Below, piece after piece: positions 18,399 through 57,254 of a DNA stretch of 64,000 bases. A program made the translations under genes and the position numbers. Source of the stretch: Lytechinus pictus (lineage: Eukaryota); the NCBI RefSeq assembly GCF_037042905.1, contig NC_087251.1, forward strand, positions 1,612,001 through 1,676,000, in the 5' to 3' direction. The notes under the pieces are model-generated. The model saw only the letters and a list, made by a program, of their open reading frames with translations, searched no databases and was not told where the DNA came from. Within the stretch, counting starts at the first letter, position 1; each line of letters opens with the position of its first letter.

Positions 18399-18401
18399 GT
18401 A

Positions 18402-18476
18402 AAGTAGTATTAGTACAGTGGTGATGGTGGCGGTAGTGGTAATGATGGTGGTGGTGGTAGTAGTTGTAGTTGTAGC

Positions 18477-18555
<79 letters not shown>

Positions 18556-22450: not shown

Positions 22451-22889
22451 ATAGACATTTAAAAGGTCTTGTACTTTCTATGGGGATCCTCAAATTGGCA
22501 AACATGGTTCAAAATTGCTGATTTTGTGGACAACTCTCCATTTGTTTTGTACACAATTTTTCAGATTTTCCCCATTATCTTTCAAATTGCATATTGCCTC
22601 ATTCTGAGCATAATATATATCATAGGAAAATATAATTCACATCACATATGTTAAGGTCAGGAGAAAATAATGTGAAATATATATAAATATAGGGTTGTCC
22701 ACAAAATCAGCCATTTTGAAACACATTTGCCAATTTGAGGATCCCAATAGAAAGTACAAGAAGACTTTTTAAATGTCTATAACTTGCTTATTTCACAACC
22801 GATTTTGATGAAACTTGTTTTAAATTGTTCCTCTCGTTTTACTCTTTCCAATAAGTTTGCTTCTCTTCTTGAGTTTTGGTTTCCTTTAA
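22445..22889. mobile_element. TTAA-type MITE inserted in the array, left terminus deleted
   Basis: About 95-bp inverted arms (22445-22540 vs 22690-22787); CCGATTTTGATGAAA subterminal motif shared with the 4096 family; ends CCT-TTAA. Confidence 0.75.
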
Positions 22890-23362
22890 GAGTTAAAATC
22901 CTACTTAGGTGTTCCAAGGAGTAGTGGTTGTGCAATGTAACCTTGAATTACAAGGTTATGAGTTCAAATCCTACCTTGGTGCTCTACGGAATAGTGGTTT
23001 TGCACTGCAACCTTGAATTACAAGGTTATAAGTTCAAATCCTGCCTTGGTGCTACAAGGAGAAGTGGTTTTGCAATGTAACCTTGAATCACAAGGTTATA
23101 AGTTCAAATCCTGCCTTGGTGCTTTAAGGAGTAGTGGTTTTGAAATGTAATCTTGAATTACAAGGTTATGGGTTCAAATCCTGCCTTGGTGCTATAAGGA
23201 GTAGTGGTTTTGCAATGTAACCTTGAATCACAAGGTCATAAGTTAAAACCTTGTCATGGTGTTCCAAGGAATAGTGTTTTGGCACTGATATTTGAATCAC
23301 AAGGTTGTGAGTTCAAATCCTGCCTTGATGATCAAAGGAGTCATGGTTTTGCACTGTTACCT
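22890..23362 (+). repeat. 70-bp tRNA-like tandem array, second more diverged block (about 6.5 units)
   Basis: Units start at 22908, 22978, 23048, 23118, 23188, 23258, 23328. Confidence 0.92.
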
Positions 23363-23639
23363 TTTGCTTCAATCATTCGTTTTAAGTCGATTTGGCAGGG
23401 GGGAACTGGGTGATGATAGAGATATATTGAAATTCCAAAATGTATTGGCCCCTCAAAAATCAAGCACATTTTCTCATAACAGTTACTGTACGTAATAAGT
23501 TACGTGTAAGTATTTGTAGCATTATCATTTCTGTGGTGCTAGTTTACTCCCAGGTGTTTCTCAATCGATCTTTTGCTATTCATAATATACTATTAACATA
23601 AGAATATTTACAATTCACATCAATTATGAATATTTTCAG

Positions 23640-23835
23640 GTGAATGGTCAATGTAACTGCAAGCAGTATACATCGGGTCGTACATGTGATACCTGTCAGA
23701 ATGGTTACTACAATCTAGATGCTATAAACCCTGATGGCTGTGAGCCATGTCAATGCATCTCAGCTGGTACAATCAACTCAGATATCTCATGCCATCAACA
23801 GACTGGAGTGTGTAACTGCAAACCTAATGTCATAG
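23640..23835 (+). CDS. USH2A: Exon 11: laminin-EGF
   Basis: ttcag| VNGQCNCKQY...KPNVI G|gttag. Confidence 0.93.
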
Positions 23836-24469
23836 GTTAGTATATCTCAAAGTGTTACTCTTTAACAGAGTCTTTTTAATTGATGTTACATGTCCATGTA
23901 CCATTGTACTTTGTTTAAATAACAAAATAGAAGTTTTTGTTTCTATTATCATGTCAGAAAGATGTGTTTGAGATCGGACTTAAGAGCAATACACGTTAAC
24001 ATGCATACGTGACGCAGTGGTAATCTGATCTTAATTGAGCAATAAAAGTTGATTGATTTAACGTGCAATCAGCTACTGTATGATTTTGTTTTCTCAAGCT
24101 GTCGTTAGTTTTACGCCTTACAATGAATTTCTATAAGCTTGAATGTCTTTTTTTATTATGTTTGTAAGGAGGATGACATGATGTGGGGGGGGGGGGGTAG
24201 ATGCTTGGTGGTGATTGTGGAGGAAAAAGGATTGTGAGATAAGAAGGTACATGTATATCATCCACTTTCAATGGAAGATCCTCCATGGATAAGTGTTTCA
24301 GTTTGTGTGTGTTTCAACTTATAATTTGCACACTGTTTTTCTAGATATTTTTTGTACTGTAACATGTGTAGTGTTCTTTTATGTTGCTTGCTTCTGACTG
24401 TGATACTTCTATTGCTCTTTAATACTTAAGGGAATTACTTAGAAACAAACTGTTTTCACCCTTCTTTAG

Positions 24470-24768
24470 GTGACAAGTGTGACCGTTGTAACTATGGTTT
24501 CTATGACCTTGCTGCTTCTAACCCATTTGGTTGCCTGCCATGTGGTTGTGATCCTGATGGTTCAAGTAGTATCTACTGTGACCCTACCAACGGTCAATGC
24601 CAGTGTAGACCATCCACCCAGGGTAGGACGTGTGCTGAATGCCGTGATGGGTTCTATGGCTTGGCATTAGGTGGATGCTCTGAATGTGATTGTGATGATG
24701 CTGGGACGGAGCCAGGAGCACCATGTAACAAGGCTACAGGACAGTGTGTCTGCAAGGCTAATGTTCAG
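24470..24768 (+). CDS. USH2A: Exon 12: laminin-EGF
   Basis: tttag| DKCDRCNYGF...KANVQ |gttag. Confidence 0.93.
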
Positions 24769-25281
24769 GTTAGAATTATACCACCTAATGGTAGTCTAGA
24801 AAAAAATTGGGATTTTGACCATATAAAGCCACACTGTATGGCTCTGATTCTCAAAGGTGTATTTTTTAATGTGTTAAGTGCATTAGTTTTATTTCATTGG
24901 GGCCTATCAAGCGTGAATTTAGCCCTCTGTGACGAAAACATTCATTTTTTTTACCCTTTCTCAGTACATGCCCTAAATTAAGACATGAAATCTTCATAAA
25001 GTATGGTTTCAAACCAATGATTCAAAACCACCCATTCCTGTGAGAATACAGGACTGTGTATTGAATTTAATAGCAATTATTTGTTTTGGAATTTAGATTA
25101 AGACTCCTATGGCCGCACTGCCCAATCTTGACAGATACCAAATTTACAGACTTTTCTATTGCATCAAATATTCTATAACCAAATCCATGCAATTGAACAG
25201 TAGTGATATTTGCAATGAATTGAAGTTAAATGTTCATTTTTGATTCCTTAATTGTAGAGTTAATATTGATCTTGATTGTAG

Positions 25282-25639
25282 GGTGTACGATGTGACCAGT
25301 GTGCCCCATCCTATTACAATCTCCAAGCTTCCAATTCTCAAGGTTGTTCACCATGCTCCTGTAACACCGATGGCACAGTCAATGGCTCGACCTCCTGTGA
25401 GGCCGTCACTGGTCAGTGTGAATGCAAGACCAATGTCCTTGGACGGACCTGTAATTCCTGCGCTCCAAACACCTTTGGTCTTGATGCAGACAATGTAGAT
25501 GGTTGTGAGTCTTGTGGATGTGATGCTACTGGTACACAGACAGGATCAAATGGAGAAGTGTTGGTCTGTGATCAGAATTCTGGACAATGCTCTTGTCTGA
25601 CAAACAGACTTGGAAGAATATGTGATGTCTGTGATGAAG
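25282..25639 (+). CDS. USH2A: Exon 13: laminin-EGF
   Basis: tgtag| GVRCDQCAPSYY...CDVCDE G|gtagg. Confidence 0.93.
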
Positions 25640-26142
25640 GTAGGTTCATGGTTTGACTCTCCATCACAAATTGATCAATACTTTGTAATGGGAATTTTGA
25701 ATAGTCAAAATAGGACAGGTGGGGGAGAGGTGAGGGTTTTTTTTAAGAAAGATGATGAATTTCTCTACTATAGGTCATATTTTGAGGTTAAATGTCTAAA
25801 GTTGACCTTGAAATGTTTCCAGCCTTGCCGTTAGGTATTGTCATTCAATATGTGTCCCACTTCAGTACGCAGCATGTTATGAATCATTTTAGAGCTGAGA
25901 TTCTGTTCTTTTAAACTATTGGCTCACCAGAGGTGGAGCAATTTATTTTTGTTGCCTTAGAAGCGCCGATTTCAAACATTGTCAGAGCCTTATCTCCCTT
26001 TGGTAAACCATTTATTCCTATGAATAATTTAGGAATCAGTCCCCTCGTGTCTATAAAGATTTCTCTGAACCCGGGTCAAAACAAAGCTGTCTTTATTCTT
26101 AAAAAGATGAATCACTTACCTGTACCTTCTGCTCTATTACAG

Positions 26143-26335
26143 GGTTTTATGTTCCCCCCTCTGATGGGCGTGGCTGTCTGTCGTGTGACTGTGAACCATT
26201 GAGTACAGAGCCTAATTCATTCTGTAATTCATTGACCGGTCAATGTCAGTGTCGACAAGGAAACCCAGGTGTAACAGGGAGAAGATGTGATAGCTGTCTG
26301 GAAGAGTACTTCAACTTTAACCCTAATACAGGAAT
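26143..26335 (+). CDS. USH2A: Exon 14: laminin-EGF
   Basis: tacag| FYVPPSDGRGCLSCDC... AT|gtaag. Confidence 0.92.
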
Positions 26336-26831
26336 GTAAGTTACATCTCTTCATTCACTGCAATGTTTAACTTTACTTATTATTGTTGTTTTCATATTTT
26401 AAAAATTTCTTTTCACCAGGAGTTTATTATAGCTTTGCAGTCTCCAGTTCAGATAATCTTTAGAATGTCATTATTGTTATTACATGTATTGTAACAAAAT
26501 GTGTTCTAGATGCGAAGTATACACATTGTGCAATGGTGATTATGGCAAGAAGCTGTGATATGTTGTCGACCATTTGATCTTCTGACTCTCTCCCCTCTTA
26601 TTCAAATTCCTGTCTACTACAAATTTATAAAAAATAATAAATCTACCTTTTTTTGGTAAAACCGAATGCATGAAATACATCCATTATTGTATTTGAGCAT
26701 AAACATTTTATGAAATAAATGGCAATAGTACCATGATCTCCCTACTTGAGACTTACTAATAAGCCAAAATTGATCACATACATTTATTACTAGACTGGAT
26801 GCATTCTCATCCATTTTGTTTGATCTTATAG

Positions 26832-26995
26832 GTGTTCACCATGTGACTGTGACCCTAGAGGTAGTGTGAACACAACATGTGATTCTAACACTGGTCAGTG
26901 TGAATGCAAGGATCTTGTGACTGGTAGACGGTGTGATACATGTCAGACATCATCAAGTAATCTACAGGCTTCTAATCCTCAAGGATGCTCAAAGA
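26832..26995 (+). CDS. USH2A: Exon 15: last laminin-EGF
   Basis: tatag| CSPCDCDPRG...NPQGCSK A|gtaag. Confidence 0.92.
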
Positions 26996-27492
26996 GTAAG
27001 GATAAGCTACAGGCAAATCAGATTGTAACCCAATGATGATAGTAGTCAAACAAAAGGCAAACATTTCTAATATGGGTTTAAACTTGATTGTAAATGCCAA
27101 TTATTTGTAGTAGGACATTTCTCTGTTCAAAAGAAAAATCATTATCTTTTTAAAAAATGAGCATATTTTGCCTACTTTGTGATATTTCTGCATACTTTAT
27201 GATATTTCATTTTGTTATTTGTCCTAATGTATCATGTTTTTACACATTTTGCTGATACATGTATTTCTTTGCATGTATGTGATAAATCTCATCTGGTGCC
27301 CATTGACTTCACCTGACCTGAGTGCATTACTCAATTTTGACAGCATGAACCTTGATAACATACACTATTTCATCAAACTCTCTTTAAAACTTTGTACATT
27401 GTACTAAAAATATAATGGTGATATAATGAAAGTCTAGTTATATTGTAATCGGTTTAATTGATCTATTTGTGTGTTTATTGTTGATCATCCAG

Positions 27493-28007: not shown

Positions 28008-30733
28008 TTAAGGACGTTCCACAGTTAAAATGAAGTCCATGTCATTTTCACCAAATTTTGCACAGAGTTACTTTGGTATCTATGCATTATGAAAATGCAA
28101 AAACTAATATAGGTTCATGTGCTTATTTTTTTTCTACGGGACTTCAAAGTTGCGGTATTTGAATGATATGAAATGTTGCGCAATCATGAGAATTATGCCT
28201 CTCTTAGACCTCACGAATTCACCAAATGAGTTTAAATCATCTTTACCCAGTGGATACCGCATCAAACTTCATCAAATTTTCAAGATATATAACAAAGTGT
28301 ATTACAAAGTAAGAAAAAGTCTTTTAATTGGTAAAACTATATCTATTTGGAGTCAGCAGCGCCCTCATTTGGCAAGAATGGTGCAAAAGCTAGGAAAAAA
28401 CAAATCTTCAAAGACGTGAATCTACTCAAAAATAAAAAAAAAGTATTTTATAAGCTGCACTTTTTCAAAATCCATGTCATTTTTATCAACTTCGGCTAAA
28501 CTGTAGAGGAATGTATATGGAAGATGTAGGGAAATTAAAAATATGGGGTCCATGTGCTCGTTCTTTAACTATGAGTGTCAAAAGTGTTGCGACTTTGCAT
28601 GAAAATTGCCTAAAATGCGCCGAAAACATGCAAAAGTCTCATAATACCGTCTGAAATGAAAAGGGTTCCCGTATTTCGCTCCCAAACATTCAAAATCCAT
28701 GTCGTTTTCATTATACTCTCTAAATTTATAGAGGAATATATTCTAAAGCTGTTAAAATATTAAAAATATGGGGTCCATGTGCTCATTTTTCCAAAGTATT
28801 GCGAGTTGGCTTGAAAATATTGAAATCCACCTAAAGTGCGCCGAAAACTTGCAAAAGTCTAATAATACCGTCTAAAATGCGAATGGTTCCGTAGTTTTGC
28901 TCCCAAACATTCAAAATCCATGTCATTTTCATCATAATTTCTAAATTTGTAGAGGAATATATTCTAAAGCCGTTAAAATATTAGAAATATGACGTCCATG
29001 TGCTCGTTTTTAAGTTACCAGTGTCCAAAATATTCCGAGTTGGCTTGGAAATCGCCTAAAATGCGCCGAAAACATGCAAAAGTCTCTTAATACCCTTAAC
29101 AATGCAAATGGTTCTATATTTCGTTCCCAAACATTCAAAATCCATGTCATTTTCATCATACTCTCTAGATTTATAGAGGAATATTTTCTGAAGGCGTTAA
29201 AATATTAAAAATATGGGGTTCATTTGCTCGTTTTTAAACTATCAGTGTCCAAAGTATTGCGAGTTGGCTTGAAAATATTGAAATCCTCCTTAAGTGCAAC
29301 GAAAACGTGCAAAAGTCAAATAATACCGTCTAAAATGCGAATGGTTCCGTAGTTTTGCTCCCAAACATTCAAAATCCATGTCATTTTCATCATACTCTCT
29401 AGATTTGTAGAGAAATGTATTCTAAAGACGTCAAAACATTAAAAATATGGGGTCCATGTGCTCGTTTTTAACTATCACTGTCTAAACTGTTGCGAGTTGG
29501 TTTGAAACGGCCAAAAATGCGCCCGCGAAAACAAGCAAAAGTCTGAAAATACCGTCCAAAATGTCTAAAATACGAATGGTTCCTGAGTCCTGCTCCCAAA
29601 CATTCAAAATCCATGTCATTTTCATCATACTCTCTAGATTTGTAGAGGAATATATTCTAAAGAAGTTCAGACATTTAAACTATGGGGTCCATGTGCTCGT
29701 TTTCAAATTATCAGTGTCCAAAGTATTGCAAGTTGGCTTGAAACAGCCAAAAATGCGCCGAAAAACAAGCAAAAGTCTGTTAATACCGCCTAAAATGCGA
29801 ATGGTTCCGTAGTCTTGCTCCCAAACATTGAAAATCCATGTCATTTTCGTCATACTTTGCACATAGATATCATAGCACCTGAATATTTCAAATATGCAAA
29901 AATCAACATGGGTTCATGTGCTTAATATTTTGCTATAGAGCTTCAAAGTTAACCGAAATGGATGTTCTTAAGAATTGCGCATTCAAAAGAATTTGGCATT
30001 TTTAGACCTCACGAGATCACAACAATGAGTTTAATGCTTTATTACTCAGTCAAAATCCATAAAAATTTCATCAAATTTTGCAACATGATTAAAATTGTAT
30101 CCTTAAGATGGATAATCTATTTATATTGCTTTCAATATTGTTTGCTCATGTAAGTCTAACAGTACTCTCAGTTCTTAGAAATTGTGGGAAAGATATCAAA
30201 AATGTGAAATTTCAATAACAAACTTGAGCAGTAAAAGAAATGCTGCACTTTATTCAAAACCCATGTCATTTTCACCAAACTTTGCAAAGTTGTAGAGGAA
30301 GGTATACCTAAGAGGTGCAAACATTAAAAGATATGGGTTCATGTGCTTGTTTTCAAACTATCAGCACTCTTATTAGAGCAAATGTGCTTCTTAAAACACT
30401 CCCAAAATGCGCTAAAACTTTGTATCCATGTGAGGAAAAATTCCGAACCACTCTACCATTTATTCAAATATTTCATCATACTTTGCAGCACTACAGAGAA
30501 AAGTATTTTGACATTTTAGAGGAATAAAAAAAAATGGTCAATGAAATAACTCCAGTTTATTAGCTTCATAAAATAACACATCGGATCTGCAGTTAGTGCA
30601 GATAAGGAGAAAATTCAGCTCACAATACCTAATGCTGATTAATCACCAGTTCATCCATTGTGACGTCAGCGCGCAGAGTGTAAAATATGCGCAGATCATG
30701 ATGCGCACAAACATAACTGTGGAACGTCCTTAA
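28008..30733. mobile_element. 2.7-kb Kolobok-type non-autonomous element with internal ~225-235-bp tandem subunits
   Basis: TTAA-GGACGTTCCACAGTTA ... TAACTGTGGAACGTCC-TTAA (perfect 16-bp TIR); TCCATGTCATTTTC motif recurs about 9 times. Confidence 0.9.
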
Positions 30734-31003
30734 ATTCCCAGTTGTGTATGATATATGATGCATCACTGCAGATTATGCACAGTAGATATGTGATACTGTT
30801 TGCACCTAAACATGACTTAAGTGAATATTTGTTAAACACCCCTTTGTTATGAATGGTCACTGTATTCTTCTTATAGTTATGCACCATAGTAATCAGTACA
30901 TTGAAGGAATTAGATCCTACAACTTACCTCATCACTTTACCATGGTAAAATACTTTTTGAGTATAGATTAATGTTTGTCTCTTCATTCTCTTTCTTTCAT
31001 CAG

Positions 31004-31204
31004 GTATCCAGCAGTTTGAGGATCAGAACGTTTCTCCCTTCACATTCTACAGCTACTATGTCCAGTCAGTAAATGAAGCTGGTCGGGCTACTAGCCCCAC
31101 GGTCATCGCCCAGACACCTGATGCTATTCCTGCTGGTTTTGATGTCTTGGTCATCACCAACATCCAGGCACGGTCAGCAGACTTCTCTTGGTCTCAACCC
31201 GCAG
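31004..31204 (+). CDS. USH2A: Exon 17: FN3
   Basis: atcag| IQQFEDQNVSPFTFYSYY...WSQPA G|gtcag. Confidence 0.9.
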
Positions 31205-31458
31205 GTCAGTGTTTAGTATCATCATTATTGATGCTGTTAAATTCATTTATTGATGATTTAAACTGATGATATGTGATAGAATCTCTTAAAAAAGAGTCGC
31301 AATCCCAAGCCAAATTCCTGTACTAAATTACAGATAATTGAAACACTACGCTATTCAGTTTAAATCTCCTGGATTCACACATTTAGACTGCCAAACATAC
31401 AAGATAGAAAGTAATGGATCAGGAAAATACCTTTATTATCTTTCTCCATTTCTCAACC

Positions 31459-31510
31459 TCTCTCTCTCTCTCTCTCTCCCTTTCTAACTCTCTATCTGTC
31501 TCTTTCTCTC
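31459..31510. repeat. (TC)n microsatellite
   Basis: tctctctctc run with degenerate extension. Confidence 0.85.
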
Positions 31511-31723
31511 AGGTTCTTCTCTTTTTCTCTCAATGTGGTTTTATTAAAAAAAAAGCCCTTGAATGCTATTGATACCTTACCACAGCTGAATGAAAACACG
31601 AGTAAAACATCTTTTTTTATGTTCTTTCATTATGCATTGTTAGTTTGTATGGTATTAGAAGAAAATCTGTGTTATTATACAGGTATTCCTGATTCATAAT
31701 ATCTACCATTGTAATCCATACAG

Positions 31724-32017
31724 ATATATCAGCTACTGTGACCCAGTACATCTTGACCTCAGTGACCCCTAGCAAGCCAGACCCTCCAACACAACACTTC
31801 AGTGGTCTAGCAACCAGCTACCAGGCTATAGACCTCATTCCATTCACCAACTACACCTTCTATCTGACTGTGTGTACCCCTGGATCCTGTGGACAGGGGC
31901 GACCCACCCTAGCTTACACCCCTATGGCACCCCCTCAAGGAGTCATGGATCCTAATGCTACTGCTCTAAGCCGGAGTTCTGTCTTTGTGAGCTGGGACCA
32001 TCCTACAGAAGCTAATG
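31724..32017 (+). CDS. USH2A: Exon 18: FN3
   Basis: tacag| ISATVTQYIL...PTEAN G|gtaag. Confidence 0.9.
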
Positions 32018-32278
32018 GTAAGCGTTAAAACTGTGCGTTCAACGTGATAACTTGGCCCGTTCTGATTAATAGTTGTGATTGATCCACATAATCTCAACAA
32101 CAAAAAGACAGCGGCTCCAAAAGCTAGAGTGCATAAACATGTACGTCGATTCAAATTATTTTCTTTTTACATGCATCTTTGTCAAATCAGTGAGCTGCTT
32201 CTCATTTCCAAATGATATCTACATTTCCTAGAGGAAGAGTGATTGACTTTGATGGTTTTCAGAACTTGAGCTTGATCT

Positions 32279-32437
32279 GAGCCCCGTTTCATAAAGAACT
32301 TACAACTGTTGTAACTTTGCCATTATGGTAACTACCATGGAAACCTTGGTTCTGATTGGCTGCTGATGCCTGTTACCATGGTAGTCGCCATAATGGCAAA
32401 GTTACAACAGTTGCAAGTCAATTATGAAATGGGCCCC
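32279..32437. mobile_element. Small palindromic MITE (about 160 bp)
   Basis: About 60-bp inverted arms: cccgtttcataa..caactgttgtaactttgccattatgg / ccataatggcaaagttacaacagttg..ttatgaaatggg. Confidence 0.8.
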
Positions 32438-32592
32438 TGATCAGTCTTTTGTAAGACAGGGCTCTGTTCTATCCTAGGAAATAAGGCTCTGCCATTTTCT
32501 TTGAATAAGTATATTTGTAATGGCAAAGTGATATATTTACTTCGAATTCCACAAGTTCATGAACTGGTCCATTTTGTATTCACACTTACCAG

Positions 32593-32862
32593 GAATCATC
32601 ACTCACTATGAGCTGTTCTTCCGAGGCTATCCTGGACCAGATGGTATCATAGACCCATCAGAGACTAGGATCTTCTACCCTGCAGGATGGTACAACCCAA
32701 GACCGATCCTGACACCCCTAGAGGATCCTGCAGAGCCACCTGTTACTAACTTCACCCATACTGGTCTTGATGCATTCACTCGTTACCAGTACAGGGTGAC
32801 TGCTAGGAATCTAGCAGGAACAGGACATAGTGGTTGGACAACCGTTAGGACTGCTGAAGCTG
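32593..32862 (+). CDS. USH2A: Exon 19: FN3
   Basis: accag| IITHYELF...RTAEA G|gtaag. Confidence 0.92.
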
Positions 32863-33004
32863 GTAAGCTTGATTGTCCATTACCCAGGAGAATACTATTA
32901 TGCCTATTCGGAAGACAAGTAACTGTTGTATTTTTGCCTATTAACTAATTTGCGAAGTAAACAATAATTTTGCCAAATACTAGTAGGCACAGAAGTTGCG
33001 TCAA

Positions 33005-34375: not shown

Positions 34376-34480
34376 AATTCAATGCTAATAATATTTTGTA
34401 TAATTCAATGCCAATAATATTTTGTATAATTCAATGCTAATAATATTTTGTATAATTCAATGCTAATAATATTTTGTATA
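34376..34480. repeat. 26-bp minisatellite x4
   Basis: AATTCAATGCTAATAATATTTTGTAT x4, one substitution. Confidence 0.95.
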
Positions 34481-34518
34481 AAAGAAAGCAATTTTATTTC
34501 ATTGCTTTACTTTTACAG

Positions 34519-34746: not shown

Positions 34747-35076
34747 GTAATGACCACTTACTATTCTTTCTTAATTCGTAATATTCAAACAGTAAGTCAG
34801 AGTGAGAAACTTTCTCCTGAAGATATATTGATGCTTCATTTATGACAATCAAGGGAAATTGAAGTCTTTAAACAAAAGACACAAAGTTTGTTATTCAACA
34901 AATTGTGATTTCTTTTCTGGAATCGGTGTTGATGATTGATGAAACATACATTCTAACATATAGCACTGTGGGCAAAATTTTTCATTCAAATTTTGTTTAT
35001 GAAGGATATTATGTTGGACGCTAAATTTGAGTGACATGGACTTATTATCTGGTGTATACTGTATTGTTTCTTTCAG

Positions 35077-35352
35077 GTATTGAGTTTGAGTTCCGGGTGA
35101 CCCGCCCCAGTGATGCCCTATCCCCTGTCTCAGCCCTCCTGATGTTTGCTGCCTCCAATGGTGAACAGGAAGAGTTGATCATAGTCCAGTTGAGAGAGGG
35201 GCGACCATGGTTCATCTTTGACCCTCAAGGGGGTATAGCAGGTGCCACGCCCATGGATGAGGGAAGGACATATGATGATGGTCTGTGGCATAAAGTCAGT
35301 ATCTCTCGGGCCGGGAGTGTTGGAAGTATCACTGTGGATGATACATACACAG
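35077..35352 (+). CDS. USH2A: Exon 23: LamG-1
   Basis: ttcag| IEFEFR...FIFDPQG...DGLWHKV... G|gtaag. Confidence 0.93.
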
Positions 35353-36217
35353 GTAAGAATATGATATCATTAATGCTCTTCGTAGTTTGTTTGATTGTTT
35401 ATGCCATAATGTGTTAATTGACCACAGCGTTATGGAACCCTCGTTCTGTTGCTGTGTACCCGTGATGATGATGATGAATTGCTTTAAGCTTTAATTTGTA
35501 GATTGTTAGACTTCAGATGTGTGCAATTGTACACCTGGTATTTTATAATAACATCCAAGTGTCCGCTCTATCATAAGTCATCGGATTACATTACTGTCCA
35601 CTTTTATTCTGTAAATTTTCTGAAAGTAGATATTTTCAGATTGTATGTTACTTGCTGAAGTTCTTCAATAATGATAGCCTCATTTGATATAATGAAAGGT
35701 TTACAGTAGTCAATGCCCTCTTACGAAGTAAACAACTGTTGAAATATGGAACAAAAGAGAGCTTAGTCTGATAGCATGCTTTGTAGTACCAAATCAAACA
35801 GGATGTTCAATTGTTAAGAGCCCTTGTAATGAAGGGATTATTAGATTAGGCTAAATGTGGTACAGATTATTCTGCACTTTCCTGTCATAAGAATCTTCAT
35901 GATACTATGTGTTTTTATTCATGGGCATTGGATGGGGATACATGTATTACAATAGCTCTCATACTCCTTGTGAAAGAGGTTGAAAGGGCTATAATGACAC
36001 ATTTTTAAAGTAAATATGGTCTAGCAGAATAAATGATAAATTTTGATTGACTGCTGCCAAACAGAAAACTACCGACTAATTCCACCTAAATGATCATGGT
36101 TGCTCTGTTATGGATCAGGTAACCTACTAGTGTTTCTTGGCCTTTGGTATCAAATATTTAAATTCATCAACAAATGAACTGACTAGTAATCCTTGAACAT
36201 TTTATTCTCTGATGCAG

Positions 36218-36508
36218 GTACTGTCACAGCCCCTACAGCATCGACTATCATAGGAGAAACTACAGGCCTCTATGTGGGCGGTCTCCCTGTGAACTTTGAC
36301 CTCAGAAGATCAGAAACAGAAAATCTAGCTGTTATAAGGACCAACCTGATTGGGTGTTTGAGGAATATCCGAATTGAGACTGCACACGTACCCACCCCTG
36401 TTTGGAGAGATTTGGACTATTCCAGTGCTTTAGAGAGAGTACAGGTTCCAGGGGGTTGGCAGGGTTGTCCGACAGAGCTGGAGAGGGGTGTTCACTTTCT
36501 TGGCAAAG
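36218..36508 (+). CDS. USH2A: Exon 24: end of LamG-1
   Basis: tgcag| TVTAP...LYVGGLP...WQGCP...FLGK G|gtaaa. Confidence 0.93.
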
Positions 36509-37177
36509 GTAAAATAGATACCTATCATTAGACAATATCCATCCGTTTATCATAGTACTCTTTAATATTGAGTTTGCCAATTCAGTTTCTTAAACTCTTT
36601 GTTTTTACCTTGCTATAAATGTAGCTGTTCCTAAAAAATGCTGTAGTGAACAGGTTAGTGAACCAAAATTAAGCTTCTGAATTTCAAATCTGGTTTTTAT
36701 TTCAAAACTGTTCTAAAGTTTGAACTCCAGTTGGAGCAGATACCCTCTAGGAAACATTAAATGTTTAAGTAAAAATAATCTTGATTTCTATAAAGTTGGT
36801 AGCAATAATTTTACAGTCACAAAGACCACAGAAATAAGAAAAGGCCTGTTATGAAAACTAAAGAACTGAATAAATTTAACACTTATTTGCTTGATTTATG
36901 CAAAGTCATAACATTTGATGAAAAATATGTGTCACAGTTAAAGGATAATAAACATAATTTAGAGGGAGGATAACCTCTCACGATATATCTGAAATATTAT
37001 AGCCCTTTATCAAATCAAGGTGTCTGTTCTCCTCTCCTTTCCCATTTACTCTATATTATTCCTTTGATAATAATATTTTACAATCTTTCCCCATCATCTG
37101 ACTTGCATTCACATTTTTTCCCCTTTGCTCTGTTTTCATCAGTTTTCTGTCTCATTCCACACCTTTTTGCTTTACAG

Positions 37178-37332
37178 GATACCTTACATTGCCTGAAGGT
37201 ATTTTGAATGGAGGAAACAGCTTCACTCTAAGCCTTGATATAAGAACTCATTATCAGACTGGTCTAGTGTTGTTTGGATATCATCAGACTGGTAGCTACT
37301 TAATCATCCAAATTGTTGGTGGTAATTTGCAG
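37178..37332 (+). CDS. USH2A: Exon 25: LamG-2
   Basis: tacag| YLTLPEGILNGG...GGNLQ |gttag. Confidence 0.9.
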
Positions 37333-37978
37333 GTTAGTGAAAATAAATATATGAGCAGGACCATGTGACAATATATATTCAGTCAGCATTTATCATTGAA
37401 TTTAAATTGTTATTAAAAATGTTATAATTGAATGTATCTTTCTGTTCCTGAGTCTCACATTCACAATTTGTTCTTAGATCAACAGTAAACTGTGGTTTAT
37501 GTATAAAGAGTTGTATGTTACTACTTTGTCTTTTTGCATCTTTGTTTAACTGTCAAGAAAAATTATTGTTCGATTCTTCAATCGGTGTTTTCGATTAGCA
37601 AAACTACTGATAAATCAAACAACTGGATATGTAACAAAAGGAGTAACTGTTTGCATGCTTAAGCATAACTCTATTTTAATGTCAACCTATGTATAAATAA
37701 TTACTATCAAGAGTGAATATGATTTGAAACATATTTTGGCAAGTCATCAAAGTGTAGTTCCTTTAATTTTAATGTTGAACTTGTAATGCGAGTGTCATTT
37801 CTTAAATCTGCCCAGGGAGGGGATCTTTTGTAGTGTTATTGGTAAATGAAAGTGATTTAAGTACATTAGAAAGATATTAGAAGCAGATTAAGATGCAGAT
37901 TACAAAATTTGTACCATAATGAAAACAAAATGAATAGATAAATTAAAAGATAATGTTCCCTTGATTTGTTATTTATAG

Positions 37979-38234
37979 ATCAAAGTGTCTGTTGGTTCCG
38001 GTTTACCTGTTGTTCTTTCCATACCAAACACTGCCCTCTGTGATGGTTTATGGAAGAGTGTCATGATTACCAAGGTTGGTAACCAACTGTCAGCATCTAT
38101 CAATGGTGGAGTGTCTTCTGGTATCCAGCTTCCATCCTCATCTCTCATCCTTTTCTCTTCACTTCACCTTGGTGGTGTTAGAGATGAATCAGAAGCAGGA
38201 AGATTCCTTGATGGTATCAGTGTAAATGCACAAG
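37979..38234 (+). CDS. USH2A: Exon 26: LamG-2
   Basis: tatag| IKVSVG...LCDGLW...NAQ G|gtaga. Confidence 0.9.
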
Positions 38235-38701
38235 GTAGAACAAACTTACCAATTGTTGTTGAATTAAGAAATTTGTTTTTAGAAACATGAAATAAGTGTA
38301 ATGATCTAGAAATAGATGTTTTTTTTAAACCTAAACTTCATGTATTCCATTCTTATTTTTGCATTGGGTCTTGTTTTATTTTTCTTATTGTGAAATTTGA
38401 CACAACTTAGCCTGTAAAAGATCAATGATCTCATTAGAATGATAAAAGTGTTAAAACTTTAATATAATTATTTAATTCTCTAAGTCTTTTATAGGGACCA
38501 TCTGGTTCCAGTGAGAAACATGTTGAGTCTCTAGTGATGTTTTATTGAAGGATAAGGTTCTTTGGATGATATTCTTATTATTCTATGTATGAAAAAAAAG
38601 TCATGCCTGTATAGCATTCATCACTTACTTCCTGAGAAGTCTCTAAGAGCTCTAAAATAATGCATCATAATTACCTTGCCTTTATCAGAGCAGCTGCTAT
38701 G

Positions 38702-39768
38702 CATAATTCTTAATTATTCATGCTCCTTATTTTAATGTATTCTTTGATCATCCTTCCTTCATAGGATTTGGTGGTTGTATGATAGAGGTAACCATTGATA
38801 ACACTCCAGTAACCCTGACATCTGATAAGACAGACATCCATAATGTCTACCTAGATAATGCTAAAATGCTCATGTTCTCCATTTTACTGTACCCTTTAAT
38901 AATCTATCCCTTACAGGTTTTGGTGGCTGTATGAGAGAGTTGACCATTGATAGCATTCCAGTAAACCTTACATCTGATATGACAGGCATCCATAATGTCT
39001 ACCTAGATAATGCTAAAATGCTCTTGTTCTCCATTCTACTGTACCCTTTAATAATCTATCCCTTACAGGTTTTGGTGGCTGTATGAGAGAGTTGACCATT
39101 GATAGCATTCCAGTAACCCTGACATCTGATAAGACAGACATCCATAATGTCTACCTAGATAATGCTAAAATGCTCTTGTTCTCCATTCTACTGTACCCTT
39201 TAATAATCTATCCCTTACAGGTTTTGGTGGCTGTATGAGAGAGTTGACCATTGATAACACTCCAGTAAACCTGACATCTGATATGACAGGCATCCATAAT
39301 GTCTACCTAGATAATGCTAAAATGCTCATGTTCTCCATTCTACTGTACCCTTTAATAATCTATCCCTTACAGATTTTGGTGGCTGTATGAGAGAGTTGAC
39401 CATTGATAACACTCCGGTAAACCTGACATCTGATATGACAGGCATCCATAATGTCTACCTAGATAATGCTAAAATGCTCTTGTTCTCCATTCTACTGTAC
39501 CCTTTAATAATCTATCCCTTACAGGTTTTGGTGGCTGTATGAGAGAGTTGACCATTGATAACACTCCAGTAAACCTGACATCTGATATGACAGGCATCCA
39601 TAATGTCTACCTAGATAATGCTAAAATGCTCTTGTTCTCCATTCTACTGTACCCTTTAATAATCTATCCCTTACAGGTTTTGGTGGCTGTATGAGAGAGT
39701 TGACCATTGATAACACTCCAGTAAACCTGACATCTGATATGACCGACATTTATAATATCTACCTTGAT
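38702..39768 (+). repeat. 152-bp x7 tandem array of the intron 26 acceptor plus 5' half of exon 27
   Basis: AG| positions spaced exactly 152 nt; exon-like starts at 38765, 38917, 39069, 39221, 39373, 39525, 39677. Confidence 0.95.
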
Positions 39769-39880
39769 GGATGCCCTCCTGTCACAAGCGGTGCCATCCA
39801 ATGTTCTGATCCACAATCAGAATCCATCTATCTGGGAATCGGGAGGAATGTCACAGATAGTGGACTTAGTATATTTACAG
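39677..39880 (+). CDS. USH2A: Exon 27: end of LamG-2 (only complete copy in the 152-bp array)
   Basis: tacag| FGGCMRELTID...YLDGCPP...SIFT G|gtact; the only acceptor that keeps the frame open. Confidence 0.88.
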
Positions 39881-39942
39881 GTACTATTTATCTATTGACT
39901 GTATAGCAGTAGTGAAAGTATGTGCTTCTTTTCTGATGCTGA

Positions 39943-40185
39943 TGGGCTGATAAAACCTTGTATCTCAAAATTTAAATATTTTGATGACAGCTCAGAATAA
40001 GCTAGATTTTAGTGTTATAACATGGGTAGCAACCTTCTTTTGCCTCGAAAGAGTTCTTTACAAGTATCAGAAGACCGTTTTCAGACAGTATGAGATTGCC
40101 ACTATTGCTATAATCTTAAAATACAGCCTTTTCTAAGCTGACCTCAAAATTTTAAGATTTTGAGGTACAAGGTTTTATTAGCCCA
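39943..40185. mobile_element. Degenerate fold-back MITE
   Basis: TGGGCTGATAAAACCTTGTATCTCAAAAT... vs ...ATTTTGAGGTACAAGGTTTTATTAGCCCA. Confidence 0.75.
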
Positions 40186-40402
40186 GCCATGATATCTTGA
40201 CTTGAGATTTAACTTCAGGTTTCTCAATGAATACAGATAATGTGAGAAATTGTGAAATATCATTGAATTATTTGTTCAAACTTTGAATTTTGTACTGGTT
40301 TTCTTGAATTGGCATTAGCGCAATTAGTGATATTTCTAATTTTAATAAGAATGTGACAAGAATACAAGAGATCATTATTAGAAGATGGTATTGACCGAGA
40401 TC

Positions 40403-41012
40403 TTAAAGGTCAAGTCCACCTCAGGAAAATGTTGATTTGAATCAATAGAGAAAAATCAGACAAGCACAATGCTGAAAATTTCATCAAAATCGGATGTAAA
40501 ATAAGAAAGTTATGACATTTTAAAGTTTCGCTTATTTTTAACAAAATAATTATATGAACGAGCCAGTTACATCCAAATGAGAGAGTCGATGATGTCACTC
40601 ACTCACTATTTCTTTTGTTTTTTATTGTTTGAATTATACAATATTTCAATTTTTACGAATTTGACGATTAGGACCTCCTTGCCTGAAGCACAAAATGTTA
40701 AAATAATGGAATTCCACGTGTTCAGGGAGGAATGAAACTTCATTTCACATGACAATGACGAGAAAATCAAAATATTTCATATTTCATATAATAAAATACA
40801 AAAGAAATAGTGAGTGAGTGATGTCATCAGTTCCTCATTTGCATACCGACCGAGATGTGCATATAACTGTTTTGTGAAATGAAGCGAAACTTTAAAATGC
40901 CATAACTTCCTTATTTTACATCCGATTTTGATGAAATTTTCAGTGTTATGCTTGTTAAATTTTTCTCTTTTTATTCAAATCAAGTTTTTGTTGGGGTGGA
41001 CTTGTCCTTTAA
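40403..41012. mobile_element. Kolobok-type MITE, same family as 4096-4696
   Basis: TTAA-AGGTCAAGTCCACC ... GGTGGACTTGTCCT-TTAA. Confidence 0.88.
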
Positions 41013-41090
41013 ACATGTTGCACATGATAAGGAGATGAAATGAGCTGTTCTTTGATTTATCCTGTACTGTGTTTTTGTTATCTTTCACAG

Positions 41091-41171
41091 AGTATCTCTA
41101 CCAAGTAATAGCTACTAACATTGCTGGGTCTTCTGATGGTCCATGGGCTGCTGGAAGAACTAGAGAAGGAG
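41091..41171 (+). CDS. USH2A: Exon 28: FN3
   Basis: cacag| EYLYQVIATNIAG...RTREG G|gtttg. Confidence 0.9.
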
Positions 41172-41690
41172 GTTTGTCTTTCAAAACAAATTTTAGATGA
41201 CTCTTTAAGAGTTGTAAATTATAGAAAGACCTTTTATCTGTTAATTTCTCAACATTCATAAGAGCAATGAGATTATGTTTAGTCTTCAAAAATCTTAAAA
41301 AGTTAAAATTTCTATGCAACAGAATGATATTACAAATGATTGAATGAGAGACAAGTTAAAGAGTTGTGTTAATATTAAATCATGACAATTATATGATAAA
41401 TCCGCCAAATTCATGTGGTATTACAGTAGTATTTTATTTATCATATATGTTTTGTATTTATCATATGTTTTGTATTATCAGCCTTCAAATTTGCTCTCAG
41501 TATTTAGACAAATAAAAGCAAGGATATTACAAATTAGATGTGTTGAATGACAGAATATGTTGCTTTTCATTTGTCTGAATCCATGAGATCAGTTGATGAA
41601 TAATCATTGCTTAAAAAATACATTCAAATACATTCATATGCATATTAGAAATGTCACACTCATTGTTATATCTATCCTTGAATTTTTCAG

Positions 41691-53890: not shown

Positions 53891-54404
53891 GTCAGTATAA
53901 ACTTACTTCTTTTTAAAATGTTGTTTTAATAAATGAATAGCACACGTCATCATTCCTACATGCGTACATGTCAACTTGTATCATTTCATATGATTTATCA
54001 CCCTCAAATTCTCTGTCCATATTAACAAGATTTGCTGAAAAATGATTGATATATGCAGTAATATATCATAATAACTATGATTATGCTTGCTTGTTTCATA
54101 CCTAATGCGTACCTTTATCAGACGTCTCCAAGTGCTCTGCAATAATGTAGCATAACCCTGGATTCGTTTACAATTTTATTTCATTTTATTTGTAATAAAA
54201 TGAGATTAGTTACTTTTATTTGCTTTAAATTTGTAGCAATTGAGATTTCTCAAAGTGAATAAGGTCTGTTTTGTTGTTGTTGAGAAATATTAGAAATAGC
54301 CATATGAGGGATGATGGTATGCTGACACATGTTGAGCATCCAATTTATCATGGTAAGCAGTGAGGTGGTGATTCAGAGATGCTTATTTATTACTGTGTTG
54401 ACAG

Positions 54405-54690
54405 GCTTGTTGTGATGGCATACTACATGACACTCAGCCAGACTACCAATGCTGTGATACTAACTACCTGATGGCACCGGTCAATGCATCCACACCGTTC
54501 ATCTGCTGTGGTGGTCAGTTCCACACTGAACAGGTCAACTATGAATGTTGTAATGGTCAGTATGTCCAGGTATTCCCCGGTCAGATCTGTTGTCCAGACC
54601 CAGATGAGGATAGGGTAGCTGTAGGATCAGGTGATGCCTGCTGTGCTGGTGTGCCGTATGATTCAAGCGGCCCTCAGATCTGTTGCGCAG
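54405..54690 (+). CDS. USH2A: Exon 48: CC-repeat Cys-rich region
   Basis: gacag| ACCDGIL...QICCA G|gtaag. Confidence 0.93.
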
Positions 54691-57066
54691 GTAAGATAAT
54701 ATCAAGATTCTTAGAAGTTACAATGTTAAACGATACTCTATATTTTAATTTTCATAGAAATGGTAATGAATTTGTGTCAAGTTGAATTAGATATCAAAAG
54801 TAACATAATATTTTCCTGGTGCATTTTGGAGCATATCGTTCTGACAAATGCACCAAAGTCAATTGGGTTCAATAATCATGCTTTTGGCTTGTTTTTTTTT
54901 GGAAAGAAAATAAAACCATATGAATGTCAAAATTTCTCTCATAATAAAAGATAAGTGAGCACTTAACAATATACCTGGAATGTTGAAAAGGACTGTGTAC
55001 AGCATCATGTTTGGTATGTGGAATGTTTTCTATACAGACTTTGTTTGTTAGATAAAACACCCAGCCAAGGCTTTACACATCTGAAAGATAAGACATACAA
55101 ATGATAAAATTGCTGCTTGTACTATTGTTAAAGATCTGACATGATATTGTATTTATTGTACATTTTATTGTATTCATAAGATGATAATAAACACACCCAC
55201 ATTTATTTACAGGAGAGTTTTATGACAGGAGTCAAGGTCTTTGTTGCAGTAACGTCTTCCATTCTTATGAGGGTAAAATTAACCATGACCAATTTAAAAC
55301 TTGGATCACTAAATAACTCAAAACTTTCTACTACATAATTTCTCTCTTCACTAGATAACCCTTCTACTCTTTCAAACATTATGTAACCCGTGATGTAACC
55401 CCCTCTTGTCATATAACTGTATAATATTAAGTATGTGGGTTATTGATGGTTTTACTGAGCTGTTTGACATGTAACTATTTCTTACTAATTTTGTTTTCAT
55501 CTAGGAATCATAGTGCAAGGTAATCTCAGACATTGTCATGACTGATTGATGTGTTCTTGGCTGCTCTTTATTTAAAATTAGCATATAGTAGTTTCTGTTA
55601 TGTTATGCTTGAGTTTCTTTCATTATTCATTCTTTATTGAAGATATATATAAGCATTCATTTTAAATTTGTTGACACTTTTGTCATGCTGAGGATAGGTA
55701 CATGACTACAAAATATATATACATCAACTTTTCTATGAAAATTGTACAAGTACAATCCCACATGTTACTTTTTGTTAGACACATTTCAGTGCTAAAAATG
55801 TATACTAGTAATGTATATGTATATAGATGACATGTAATATAATTGTTTGAGATCCCCTACAATTTTTTTTGAATATCCAAGATTTACAATATTCCCAAAG
55901 TCTCAAATCCCCCACCTGAGATGTGATCATGGTGATATGGTAGCATTTCCATTGTATTTTGATCTATTTTGATGATCTATTATTTTTCAGTTAAAGCTCT
56001 CTCCTAATGCAACCTTATTTTCATATAATCATATAATTTTGCACTTCATATAGATATAGAGTCTTTATTCTGTATTTTCAATCTGTGGTTTCATTCTTTA
56101 CTACGTTGTATGTTATGTATCTTGTATTCTATCTTCACTTCACTAGATGTCCCAATGATATTCTTTTGTTTTGTCTTTAATGATTTTCCCCAGGTGGGTC
56201 TTTCATAAACCCTTTTAAACTTATGCAAACCTTTACCAACTATCATATGACAATTAAAAATTGTCTTTTTATAATGACATACATTAAACTTAACCATTTC
56301 CATTGTTATATTGGTGCTGATTTAGTTATGTGTTTTGTTTTAAGCACTGTGTATAATAGATTTCCATTGCTGTAGCTGTTATCACTTTGCACCAGACATT
56401 CATATATATTATTATGATTCAACTACATCAAACCAGAATTGGAATAGTTTAGCTCTGTATTGCCTTCTATTATATTTTTGTTTGTGTAGTCCTATTTTGT
56501 AAAGAACAACAACTTGATTTTCATATTAAAAAAATCATAAAACCAATGAATTTTCAAAGATCAAAATTTAAGTACAAATTCTTTTTGTCCTATCAACAGC
56601 CACTAACATTTTCAAAGTCTTTTAGAGGCAGAGGGGGGGGGGGGTGGTTTCAAGGTGACCAAGATTTACTGAATCAAAGATATCTGCTGTATACATGGAT
56701 GTAGACTATTTTCTGAAATAGTGATATTTTTAATGATCTGTTTAGGGGGCAACAACTGCATGACATTTATTTTTTACTACCTGAAGTTCTGAATAGCATA
56801 TGCAACCAAAGGGCAAAATGAGAACTAATGATTGTTTTTACATGTTACATGTAGATTTCATACAAAGATTCGAATGTATGCTCAACCAACTTACTTTTAG
56901 GACAAAGTTGAGATTATAAGGTGAAACACGGATAATGTCCATGTCCTGTGATATGATTAAACTTGGTGCAATTGGTCTTAACTAGAGTTACTTTAATTTA
57001 GAATGTATTTCATTACATAATCCAACCATTGTTGACCATTTGTTTTTCTATGATATTGTTGTACAG

Positions 57067-57254
57067 GTCAGTTTGCTGATGGGATGAGTGGTCAGTGTTG
57101 TGGTGGGATCATGGTGTCTGCTGCAATGACCTGCTGCTCTGAGAGAGACATGGGCGTGGCTTATCTACCAATAGAAGGCAATGTTTGCTGTGGTACGGAG
57201 TATGTTAATATGACAACATCATTGTGTTGCACAAGTGAGACTGGTGTAGCTGAG
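57067..57254 (+). CDS. USH2A: Exon 49: CC-repeat region
   Basis: tacag| QFADGMSGQCCGG...GVAE |gtatg. Confidence 0.92.

What the first reader, a model, noticed from the sequence alone, without database searches (positions are those of the whole stretch)
38702..39880. Seven tandem 3' splice sites: six decoy half-exons precede the real exon 27
Seen: each 152-bp unit is ~60 nt of intron end (…CCCTTACAG) plus ~92 nt of exon 27. Only the last copy continues to DGCPP and a donor. Splicing to any upstream acceptor reads GFGGCM…VYLD-NAKML(M/L)FSILLYPLIIYPLQ(V/I)LVAV-stop (first TGA at 38932). That gives a ~1,920-aa protein ending at LamG-2 with a ~22-residue hydrophobic tail and lacking the second Cys of the LamG pair. 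Four decoys are AG|GT junctions, the form of recursive splice sites, though GTTTTG is a weak donor. Inference, three options: exon definition ignores five acceptors nearly identical to the real one; mis-splicing feeds NMD and tunes dosage with copy number; or a short membrane- or GPI-anchored isoform is made. The hydrophobicity may simply reflect T-rich intron sequence.
Basis: partly seen in the sequence, partly recalled or inferred. Interest (0 to 1): 0.8.

Follow-up and report, generated by a model that had tools for sequence, protein, structure and literature searches.

The report
Silent splice-acceptor repeat in usherin intron
The end of one intron plus the first 92 bases of the next exon of an echinoderm usherin gene is copied head to tail seven times, and the RNA examined joins the upstream exon to the last, genuine copy, so this is likely a tolerated repeat of a kind already known from lancelets ("mirages") and not a splicing switch.

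Summary
A 152-bp tandem array (6.6 copies, 96% matches) puts seven AG acceptors 152 nt apart in front of the exon that ends LamG-2 of a usherin (USH2A-type) gene. RNA shows which copy is used. A spliced RNA contig with 0 mismatches over four exons joins 38234 to 39677, and so do 9 raw junction reads from three runs. Another 13 junction reads were placed on decoys 2 and 3. Those animals' real exon carries the two bases that, in the reference, only decoys 2 and 3 have. No coverage continues behind those decoys, so I read the placements as a mapping effect. A related organism's DNA contig holds two copies. Inner units are homogenised and both array edges are diverged. This matches the amphioxus "mirages": minisatellite-like duplications of intron-exon boundaries that do not disturb splicing (PMC3087553 and PMC3902484, passages read). 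This scan has already reported the same kind of array at other loci of this genome. Nothing supports a short isoform, recursive splicing or dosage control. Low-level decoy use followed by NMD cannot be excluded. Verdict: a real, ordinary member of a known kind, of low interest.

The parts
37979..38234 (+). Exon before the array ('exon 26'), middle of LamG-2; ends in phase 1 (…CAAG)
   Evidence: Joints 37332>37979 and 38234>39677 in RNA reads and in an RNA contig. Laminin_G_2 hit, E 2.2e-7.
38235..39676 (+). Intron 26 (1,442 nt, GT..AG). Its last 912 nt are the six decoy units.
   Evidence: Joint 'skips 1442, GT..AG'.
38703..38764 (+). Old intron end in front of copy 1: a diverged homologue of the 60-nt intron part of the unit. 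This is the left edge of the ancestral duplication.
   Evidence: 41 of 62 ungapped identities to the unit's intron part; 0 of 20,000 shuffles reach this. Identity falls to background (26 of 92) further upstream.
38765..38916 (+). Decoy unit 1 (AG|GA), the most diverged copy: 8 differences in the 92-nt exon part, 5 of them in the first 26 nt
38917..39068 (+). Decoy unit 2 (AG|GT). Carries G at unit position 37 and T at 40.
39069..39220 (+). Decoy unit 3 (AG|GT). A mosaic: positions 37 and 40 as in unit 2; positions 49, 64 and 70 as in unit 1.
39221..39372 (+). Decoy unit 4 (AG|GT). Its 92-nt exon part is identical to that of unit 6; the 60-nt intron part that closes the unit differs from unit 6's by one base.
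39373..39524 (+). Decoy unit 5 (AG|AT), 2 differences in the exon part
39525..39676 (+). Decoy unit 6 (AG|GT), equal to the array's majority sequence
39677..39880 (+). Real exon 27 (204 nt), the end of LamG-2. Its first 92 nt (39677-39768) are the seventh, partial repeat copy. The first 67 nt are identical to units 4 and 6; positions 68-92 carry 6 differences (right edge of the array).
   Evidence: Joints 38234>39677 and 39880>41091; translation; alignment to usherins over residues 1-67
41091..41171 (+). Start of the next exon (FN3 region), joined to exon 27 in RNA. The end coordinate is only as far as the RNA contig was laid.
   Evidence: tables 5 and 8

Best explanation
A 152-base minisatellite, made of the last 60 bases of intron 26 and the first 92 bases of exon 27 of an echinoderm usherin gene, lies inside intron 26, and the mRNA joins exon 26 to the last copy. 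The six upstream copies are likely neutral passengers removed with the intron, probably because only the last acceptor is followed by the rest of the exon and a donor (exon definition, inferred). Shown: the array exists, the last acceptor is used, a relative has a shorter form, and the copies follow a concerted-evolution pattern. Inferred history: an old tandem duplication of about 152-154 bp across the boundary, which is the two-copy state still seen in the relative. Unequal crossing-over then amplified and homogenised the inner units and also overwrote the first 67 nt of the live exon. Each added copy only lengthens the intron by 152 nt. Any transcript spliced to a decoy would carry a stop 186 nt or more before the next exon junction and would be predicted to be cleared by NMD. 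This is the 'mirage' type of repeat described in amphioxus.
For: Array: 152 x 6.6, 96%; pairwise differences. Gene: Laminin_N, laminin EGF, fn3, two Laminin_G regions and many fn3, in usherin order; the best named hits are 'putative usherin' of a sea cucumber (58%) and 'usherin-like' of a brittle star (51%). Splicing: the X1 contig of 3,208 nt lies on 37176-37330, 37977-38232, 39675-39876 and 41087-41171 with 0 other letters. Joint 38234>39677 has 2, 6 and 1 reads in X22, X23 and X24. Behind decoys 2 and 3, the bins that hold the intron-like part have depth 0-0.74, and bins 39221-39676 have 0-0.18 in X23 and X24. Exon 27 has depth 3.9-22.3. Only the last copy is conserved: real exon residues 1-67 align to usherins (best E 3.6e-11), the decoy read-through only residues 1-30. 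Age and dynamics: the organism B contig (763 nt) lies on 38443-38775 and then directly on 39536-39966, skipping 760 nt or 5 units, which gives two copies. The left edge is 65% identical and the right edge has 6 differences in 25 nt, against 0-5 differences per 152 nt inside. Decoys 2 and 3 carry G37/T40, which is the state of the real exon in all reads of X22-X24 (4 of 4, 7 of 7, 3 of 3) and in the organism B contig. Precedent: amphioxus mirages, including a globin gene with 150-160-bp units of intron end plus exon start, 3 and 6 units in two haplotypes, normal splicing, and homogenisation that spares the cluster edges (PMC3087553, passages; PMC3902484, passage).
Against: At 90% likeness, 13 of 22 junction reads were placed on decoy acceptors: 38917 got 3, 3 and 3 reads, and 39069 got 4 reads in X23. 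I explain this by the alleles of those animals, but I could not see the reads themselves. In one search, at 95% likeness, 13 joint rows were not shown. Run X22 has about two reads' worth of depth (1.3-2.0) across decoy 1 and its intron part (38765-38916). One read starts 3 nt before the acceptor, which fits unspliced RNA, but use of the first acceptor is not excluded. Junction reads number only 22, the RNA comes from untreated animals, and NMD would hide decoy products. The copy number of seven rests on the assembly alone, because no DNA run of the same organism was listed. Exon definition as the reason for the choice is inference. The 50-55-nt NMD rule is recalled from mammals and was not checked for echinoderms.
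Confidence: 0.8

Rival explanations
1. The decoy acceptors are used at a low rate, the resulting stop-codon transcripts are destroyed by NMD, and array length would thereby tune usherin output.
For: All six decoys share 60 nt upstream with the real acceptor (decoys 2 and 5 differ there by 1-2 bases). Decoys 4 and 6 also share at least 67 nt downstream with it. Every decoy gives a TGA 186 nt or more before the donor. Copy number differs between the reference (7) and a relative (2). X22 shows a little coverage inside the array.
Against: No read continues from a decoy's exon part into its intron part in X23 or X24. The X22 coverage is about two reads, one starting in the intron, and X22 also has intronic reads in intron 25. 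There is no sign of selection for the array, and the same kind of array sits in unrelated genes of this genome (earlier notes, not re-tested).
Confidence: 0.1
2. A short usherin isoform of about 1,900 residues ends in the decoy-encoded hydrophobic tail and is anchored in the membrane or by GPI.
For: The tail of 22 residues has mean hydropathy 2.2. Each decoy has an open frame of 56 residues.
Against: The array has no polyadenylation hexamer and no donor, so such a transcript would run on through exon 27 and be an NMD target. Coverage of the tail-coding parts is near zero. The tail has no match in usherins. The tail is a translation of a pyrimidine-rich intron end, and it lacks the second LamG cysteine.
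Confidence: 0.02
3. The AG|GT decoys act as recursive splice sites: exon 26 is spliced to one copy after another, and each step regenerates a donor.
For: Four decoys and the real site are AG|GT. The regenerated site matches 5 of 9 consensus positions, against 6 of 9 for the real donors of exons 26 and 27.
Against: The regenerated donor has T at +3, +4 and +5, and decoys 1 and 5 regenerate no GT. The intron is only 1.4 kb, whereas known recursive sites (recalled) lie in very long introns and have strong donors. No intermediates with decoy parts were seen beyond the allele-explained placements.
Confidence: 0.03
4. The count of seven copies is an assembly artefact, and the true haplotype has fewer copies, for example two.
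For: No independent DNA reads of the same organism were available. The relative's contig has two copies. The amphioxus paper notes one mis-assembled mirage in a draft genome (PMC3087553, supplementary legend seen).
Against: The units carry their own substitutions in a mosaic pattern, which a collapse or stutter would not create. The array is 1 kb, well inside a long read, and the assembly has 812 Mb in 368 contigs. The duplication as such is confirmed by the relative's contig and by X22 reads across a decoy's exon-to-intron junction.
Confidence: 0.05

Closest known systems
[quoted passage not shown]
   Same: Head-to-tail copies of an intron end plus an exon start, lying in the intron in front of the authentic exon. 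In BflGb6 the units are 150-160 bp, with 3 and 6 units in two haplotypes. Many copies keep AG/GT signals, yet regular splicing is not disturbed. Concerted evolution inside the cluster spares its edges (PMC3087553, passages read; PMC3902484, passage read). The founding paper (Canestro et al. 2002, Nucleic Acids Res 30:2871) is known to me only from the reference list and is not held.
   Different: The host is an echinoderm, not a cephalochordate, and the gene is usherin. Length variation within the species, and somatic instability, were not tested here; only a relative with two copies was seen.
Intron birth or growth by tandem genomic duplication (Rogers model; Hellsten et al. 2011, PMC3265369; Lehmann et al. 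2010, PMC2891723)
   Same: A short intragenic tandem duplication carrying splice signals is spliced out, leaving the peptide unchanged. NMD is invoked for the unspliced forms (passages read).
   Different: In those cases an AGGT inside coding sequence creates a new intron. Here an existing intron simply grows by 152 nt per copy and no new intron position arises.
Tandem acceptors of the NAGNAG type
   Same: Several acceptors in a row at one exon start (search listing only).
   Different: NAGNAG sites lie 3 nt apart, share one branch point and tract, and are both used. Here the sites are 152 nt apart, each with its own tract, and only the last is seen in use.
Recursive splice sites (ratchet points) of long Drosophila and vertebrate introns (recalled, no call)
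   Same: An acceptor juxtaposed with GT (AG|GT).
   Different: The regenerated donor is weak (GTTTTG), the intron is short, and two of the six decoys lack GT. No supporting reads were found.

Membership tests
Mirage-type boundary minisatellite | Head-to-tail tandem repeats of minisatellite size | tested here: met
   Period 152, 6.6 copies, 96% matches, no indels
Mirage-type boundary minisatellite | The unit spans an intron-exon boundary of a real, transcribed exon | tested here: met
   The unit is 60 nt of intron end plus 92 nt of exon start. The boundary at 39676/39677 is confirmed by RNA joints and by homology.
Mirage-type boundary minisatellite | Regular splicing is not disturbed: the authentic copy at the array's edge is used | tested here: met
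   An RNA contig with 0 mismatches and 9 reads join 38234 to 39677. The 13 reads placed on decoys 2 and 3 are explained by alleles and by the lack of read-through. Low-level decoy use is not excluded.
Mirage-type boundary minisatellite | Concerted evolution inside the cluster, with the edges excluded | tested here: met
   Inner units differ by 0-5 nt. The left edge has 21 of 60 differences and the right edge 6 of 25.
Mirage-type boundary minisatellite | Length instability between haplotypes or individuals | tested here: inconclusive
   A related organism's contig holds two copies, against seven in the reference. No DNA of other individuals of the same organism was available.
Usherin (USH2A-type) gene | Domain order: laminin N-terminal, laminin EGF repeats, FN3, two LamG, many FN3 | tested here: met
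   Pfam hits occur in this order along the + strand from 12127 to 64000. The architecture of usherin itself is recalled. Named usherin hits come from many phyla, the best at 58%. The transmembrane and C-terminal end lies outside the window and was not seen.
Recursive splice site | An acceptor directly followed by a strong regenerated donor, with splicing intermediates or lariats at the site | tested here: not met
   The regenerated site AAG|GTTTTG matches 5 of 9 consensus positions, with T at +3 to +5. Decoys 1 and 5 have no GT. No intermediates were seen, though depth is low.
Regulated unproductive splicing (poison exon or NMD switch) | A PTC-carrying isoform is detectably made, rises on NMD block, and the element is conserved | not testable with these tools
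   The PTCs are present, but no NMD-blocked RNA was available. Copy number is not conserved: 2 against 7.

The most novel reading that the evidence does not exclude
The decoy acceptors are used now and then. The stop-codon transcripts are destroyed by NMD. Usherin output then falls as the array grows (two copies in a relative, seven here), which would make a heritable, copy-number-set dosage dial in a sensory-cell gene.
Probability: 0.08. Interest if true: 0.55.

Novelty: new member of a known kind. Interest (0 to 1): 0.2.

Why it matters
The array is a clean natural competition experiment. Decoys 4 and 6 share with the real acceptor the 60 nt upstream (identical for decoy 6, one base different for decoy 4) and at least 67 nt downstream, yet the mature RNA shows the last one. 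The deciding information must therefore lie more than 67 nt into the exon: the rest of the exon and its donor, or quality control after splicing. It also shows a live coding exon taking part in the concerted evolution of its own intronic copies, because amino-acid-changing variants (N/S and T/I at unit positions 37 and 40) are shared between the decoys and alleles of the real exon. Together with the earlier notes of this scan, it adds a case outside lancelets for 'mirage' repeats. In the library searched, no paper describing mirages in sea urchins turned up. Two papers held all of the terms mirages, intron, tandem and sea urchin, and neither is about that. For the usherin gene itself nothing unusual follows.

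Tried and rejected
The search with the 67-residue exon among longer proteins found nothing at E 0.001 or below; only proteins of 119-2000 residues were searched. It was replaced by the 825-residue FN3 exon.

No RNA holder was listed on record in the run search. X1, labelled 'RNA?', proved to hold a spliced contig.

Rfam at E 0.1 or below on 38000-41300 gave 0 matches.

Earlier notes near this place: none.

The paper search for 'tandem duplication' + 'acceptor site' + 'intron-exon boundary' + 'duplicated' returned 1 paper, on myopathy diagnostics, which I did not use.

The founding mirage paper (PMC117041) is not held.

A self-comparison of the window for other local direct duplications within 4 kb gave six alignment rows at three places. 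None of them lies at a coding-exon boundary that tblastn found, so this is the only boundary-spanning array seen in the window.

Selection on the decoys' exon parts: about 8 synonymous and 10 non-synonymous differences, counted by eye. These are too few, and some are shared with real-exon alleles, so I dropped this line.

Antisense transcription was rejected: RNA depth on the opposite orientation is 0 across 38005-39904 in all three stranded runs.

Full report
**What is there.** The region 38763-39768 is a single tandem array of period 152, with 6.6 copies, 96% matches and no indels. In register, the exon-like parts start at 38765, 38917, 39069, 39221, 39373, 39525 and 39677. Each is preceded by a pyrimidine-rich tract ending in AG. 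A unit is 92 nt equal to the start of the downstream exon plus 60 nt of intron end. Only the seventh copy runs on into the rest of the exon and to a GT donor after 39880. The array occurs once in the 812-Mb, 368-contig assembly.

**The gene.** Along the + strand, Pfam finds these domains in order:
- Laminin_N at 12127-13563
- laminin EGF repeats at 18201-27033
- fn3 at 30967-32945
- Laminin_G at 35031-36528 and at 37979-38287
- fn3 from 42803 to the window's end, including one open frame of at least 825 residues with 8 fn3 stretches

That is the domain order I recall for usherin (USH2A). The 825-residue frame finds 616 proteins at E 1e-20 or below. The best named ones are 'putative usherin' of a sea cucumber (58% identity) and 'usherin-like' of a brittle star (51%). 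The genome is therefore an echinoderm's. Earlier notes of this scan call it a sea urchin's, which I did not test further. The exon at 39677-39880 encodes the end of the second LamG domain. It aligns over all 67 residues to usherins of two molluscs, an annelid and vertebrates (best E 3.6e-11). The decoy read-through aligns only over its first 30 residues, and its tail matches nothing. The exon corresponds to residues 1774-1998 of three usherins. The number 'exon 27' was not verified; tblastn sees about 24 coding pieces before it.

**Consequences of using a decoy.** Each of the six upstream acceptors would give 56 residues and then TGA. The first TGA is at 38932. The stops lie 186-946 nt before the exon's donor. 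The array holds no AATAAA or ATTAAA, and no GT site with 7 or more of 9 consensus matches. A decoy-spliced RNA would therefore run on through the array and exon 27. By the exon-junction rule I recall from mammals, it would be an NMD target. The 22-residue tail is hydrophobic (mean 2.2), but it is simply the translation of a T- and C-rich intron end.

**RNA: the canonical junction.** Of the 24 runs listed, I laid three stranded, rRNA-depleted raw-read runs with the same species label (X22-X24) and one contig run (X1). At 95% likeness, three GT..AG joints appear: 37332>37979, 38234>39677 and 39880>41091. The middle joint has 2, 6 and 1 reads. One X1 contig of 3,208 nt lies on all four exons with 0 other letters. 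X1 matches the reference perfectly, while the other animals differ at 8 or more of the 204 positions of exon 27. X1 therefore probably has the reference's own haplotype, and it splices to the last copy.

**RNA: the reads placed on decoys.** At 90% likeness, on a stretch cut so that the depth bins fall in register with the units, two more joints appear: 38234>38917 (3, 3 and 3 reads) and 38234>39069 (4 reads in X23). Thus 13 of 22 junction reads were placed on decoys 2 and 3. I do not take these as decoy use, for three reasons:
- **Alleles.** All reads of these animals over 39713 and 39716 of the real exon show G and T (4 of 4, 7 of 7, 3 of 3). In the reference, only decoys 2 and 3 have that state. 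A junction read with fewer than about 68 nt in the exon therefore fits those decoys better than the real copy.
- **Short overhangs.** The largest short side among these reads is 50-69 nt.
- **No read-through.** A true decoy transcript must continue through the intron-like part, because there is no donor. The bins holding those parts have depth 0-0.2 behind decoy 2 and 0-0.74 behind decoy 3. In X23 and X24 the bins from 39221 to 39676 have 0-0.18. Exon 27 has 3.9-22.3.

**RNA: coverage inside the array.** The only coverage there is in X22: about two reads' worth over 38765-38992. One read starts at 38762, that is, in the intron. X22 also has reads in intron 25. I read this as unspliced RNA but cannot exclude use of the first acceptor. 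No antisense RNA covers the array.

**History.** Inner units differ by 0-5 nt, and both edges are old.
- **Left edge.** The 62 nt before copy 1 match the unit's intron part at 41 of 62 positions (0 of 20,000 shuffles reach this). The likeness stops exactly at about -60. Five of copy 1's 8 differences lie in its first 26 nt.
- **Right edge.** The real exon is identical to units 4 and 6 over 60 nt upstream and 67 nt downstream of the AG. It then has 6 differences in the last 25 nt of the homology.
- **Mosaic.** Unit 3 combines variants of units 1 and 2.

A DNA contig of a related organism (X5, 763 nt, depth 38.6) lies on 38443-38775 and then directly on 39536-39966, skipping 760 nt or five units. 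It thus holds one decoy and the real copy. As a short-read contig this is a minimum, but a longer identical array would normally break the contig.

The simplest history is an old duplication of about 152 bp across the boundary. Recent amplification and homogenisation by unequal exchange followed in the reference's lineage, and this also overwrote the first 67 nt of the live exon. Variants that change amino acids (N/S and T/I at unit positions 37 and 40) are shared between the decoys and alleles of the real exon.

**Comparison with what is known.** After my own reading was fixed, a look-up showed that this scan has noted the same kind of array at several other loci of this genome. Some of those reports name the amphioxus 'mirages'. 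I checked that claim in the literature. [quoted passage not shown]
- BflGb6 has the 3' end of an intron plus the 5' part of exon 2 in units of 150-160 bp.
- It has 6 and 3 units in two haplotypes.
- Many units keep AG/GT signals.
- RT-PCR shows regular splicing.
- There is concerted evolution inside the cluster, with the boundaries excluded.

PMC3902484 (passage read) says the same of Adh, troponin C and PGBD5. The founding paper (Canestro et al. 2002) I know only from the reference list; it is not held. Every feature I could test matches. Only length variation within the species remains untested. The idea that duplicated splice signals are spliced out and leave the peptide unchanged is the Rogers model, tested by Hellsten et al. 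(PMC3265369, passages) and discussed by Lehmann et al. (PMC2891723, passages). Here no new intron is made; an existing one grows.

**How it most likely works.** Shown: the mature RNA uses the last acceptor. Inferred: the choice is made by exon definition, since only the last acceptor is followed within 204 nt by the rest of the exon and a donor. Decoy 6 would give a 356-nt exon and decoy 1 a 1,116-nt exon. Classic duplicated-site experiments that I recall (Reed and Maniatis 1986, not looked up) point the same way. Rare decoy products would be predicted to be removed by NMD. The present RNA (22 junction reads, untreated animals) cannot bound that below a few percent.

**Verdict.** The regulatory and isoform readings are unsupported. 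This is a new member of a known kind, already met repeatedly by this scan in this genome. It is of low interest apart from its value as a natural splice-site competition experiment.

Noticed in passing
window 19185-22452 and 22886-23363: A 70-bp tandem array of 46.7 copies (92% matches) and a second stretch of 6.8 copies (82%) fill an intron between laminin-EGF exons. By eye the unit contains a tRNA T-arm-like motif, but ARAGORN finds no tRNA in 19000-23500.
   Followed up: partly
window 40300-41010 (intron 27): A dispersed repeat with very high RNA depth in both orientations: up to 364 in raw-read runs against 5-25 on the exons, and summed contig depth above 100,000 in X1. By eye, peptide motifs on the minus strand suggest two adjacent related copies. 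Rfam finds nothing there.
   Followed up: partly
window 39938-40157 (intron 27): Another repeated element: summed DNA-contig depth of 2,000-3,000 in the relative's run against about 39 on the flanking unique sequence. Many contigs end here.
   Followed up: no
window 54402-54782 and 57054-57266, + strand: Pfam Galaxin_repeat hits lie inside the FN3 part of the gene. The usherin relatives carry the same family (PF24748), so this looks like a regular part of usherin and not a nested gene.
   Followed up: partly
window 61526-64000, + strand: One open frame of at least 825 residues with 8 fn3 stretches runs off the window's end. It is a giant exon of the usherin gene.
   Followed up: partly
window 39677-39880: There is high allelic divergence. 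RNA animals with the same species label differ from the reference at 8-9 of 204 exon positions. Most of those alleles are shared with the related organism's contig, so the reference haplotype is the odd one out here.
   Followed up: partly
window 28464-29858: An intronic tandem array with periods of 221-458 bp, 3-6 copies and 76-82% matches. Related sequence lies at 28033-28280 and 29832-30079.
   Followed up: no
window 34376-34481: A 26-bp x 4.1 array (97% matches) ends about 35 nt before the exon that starts near 34518. It does not include exon sequence.
   Followed up: no
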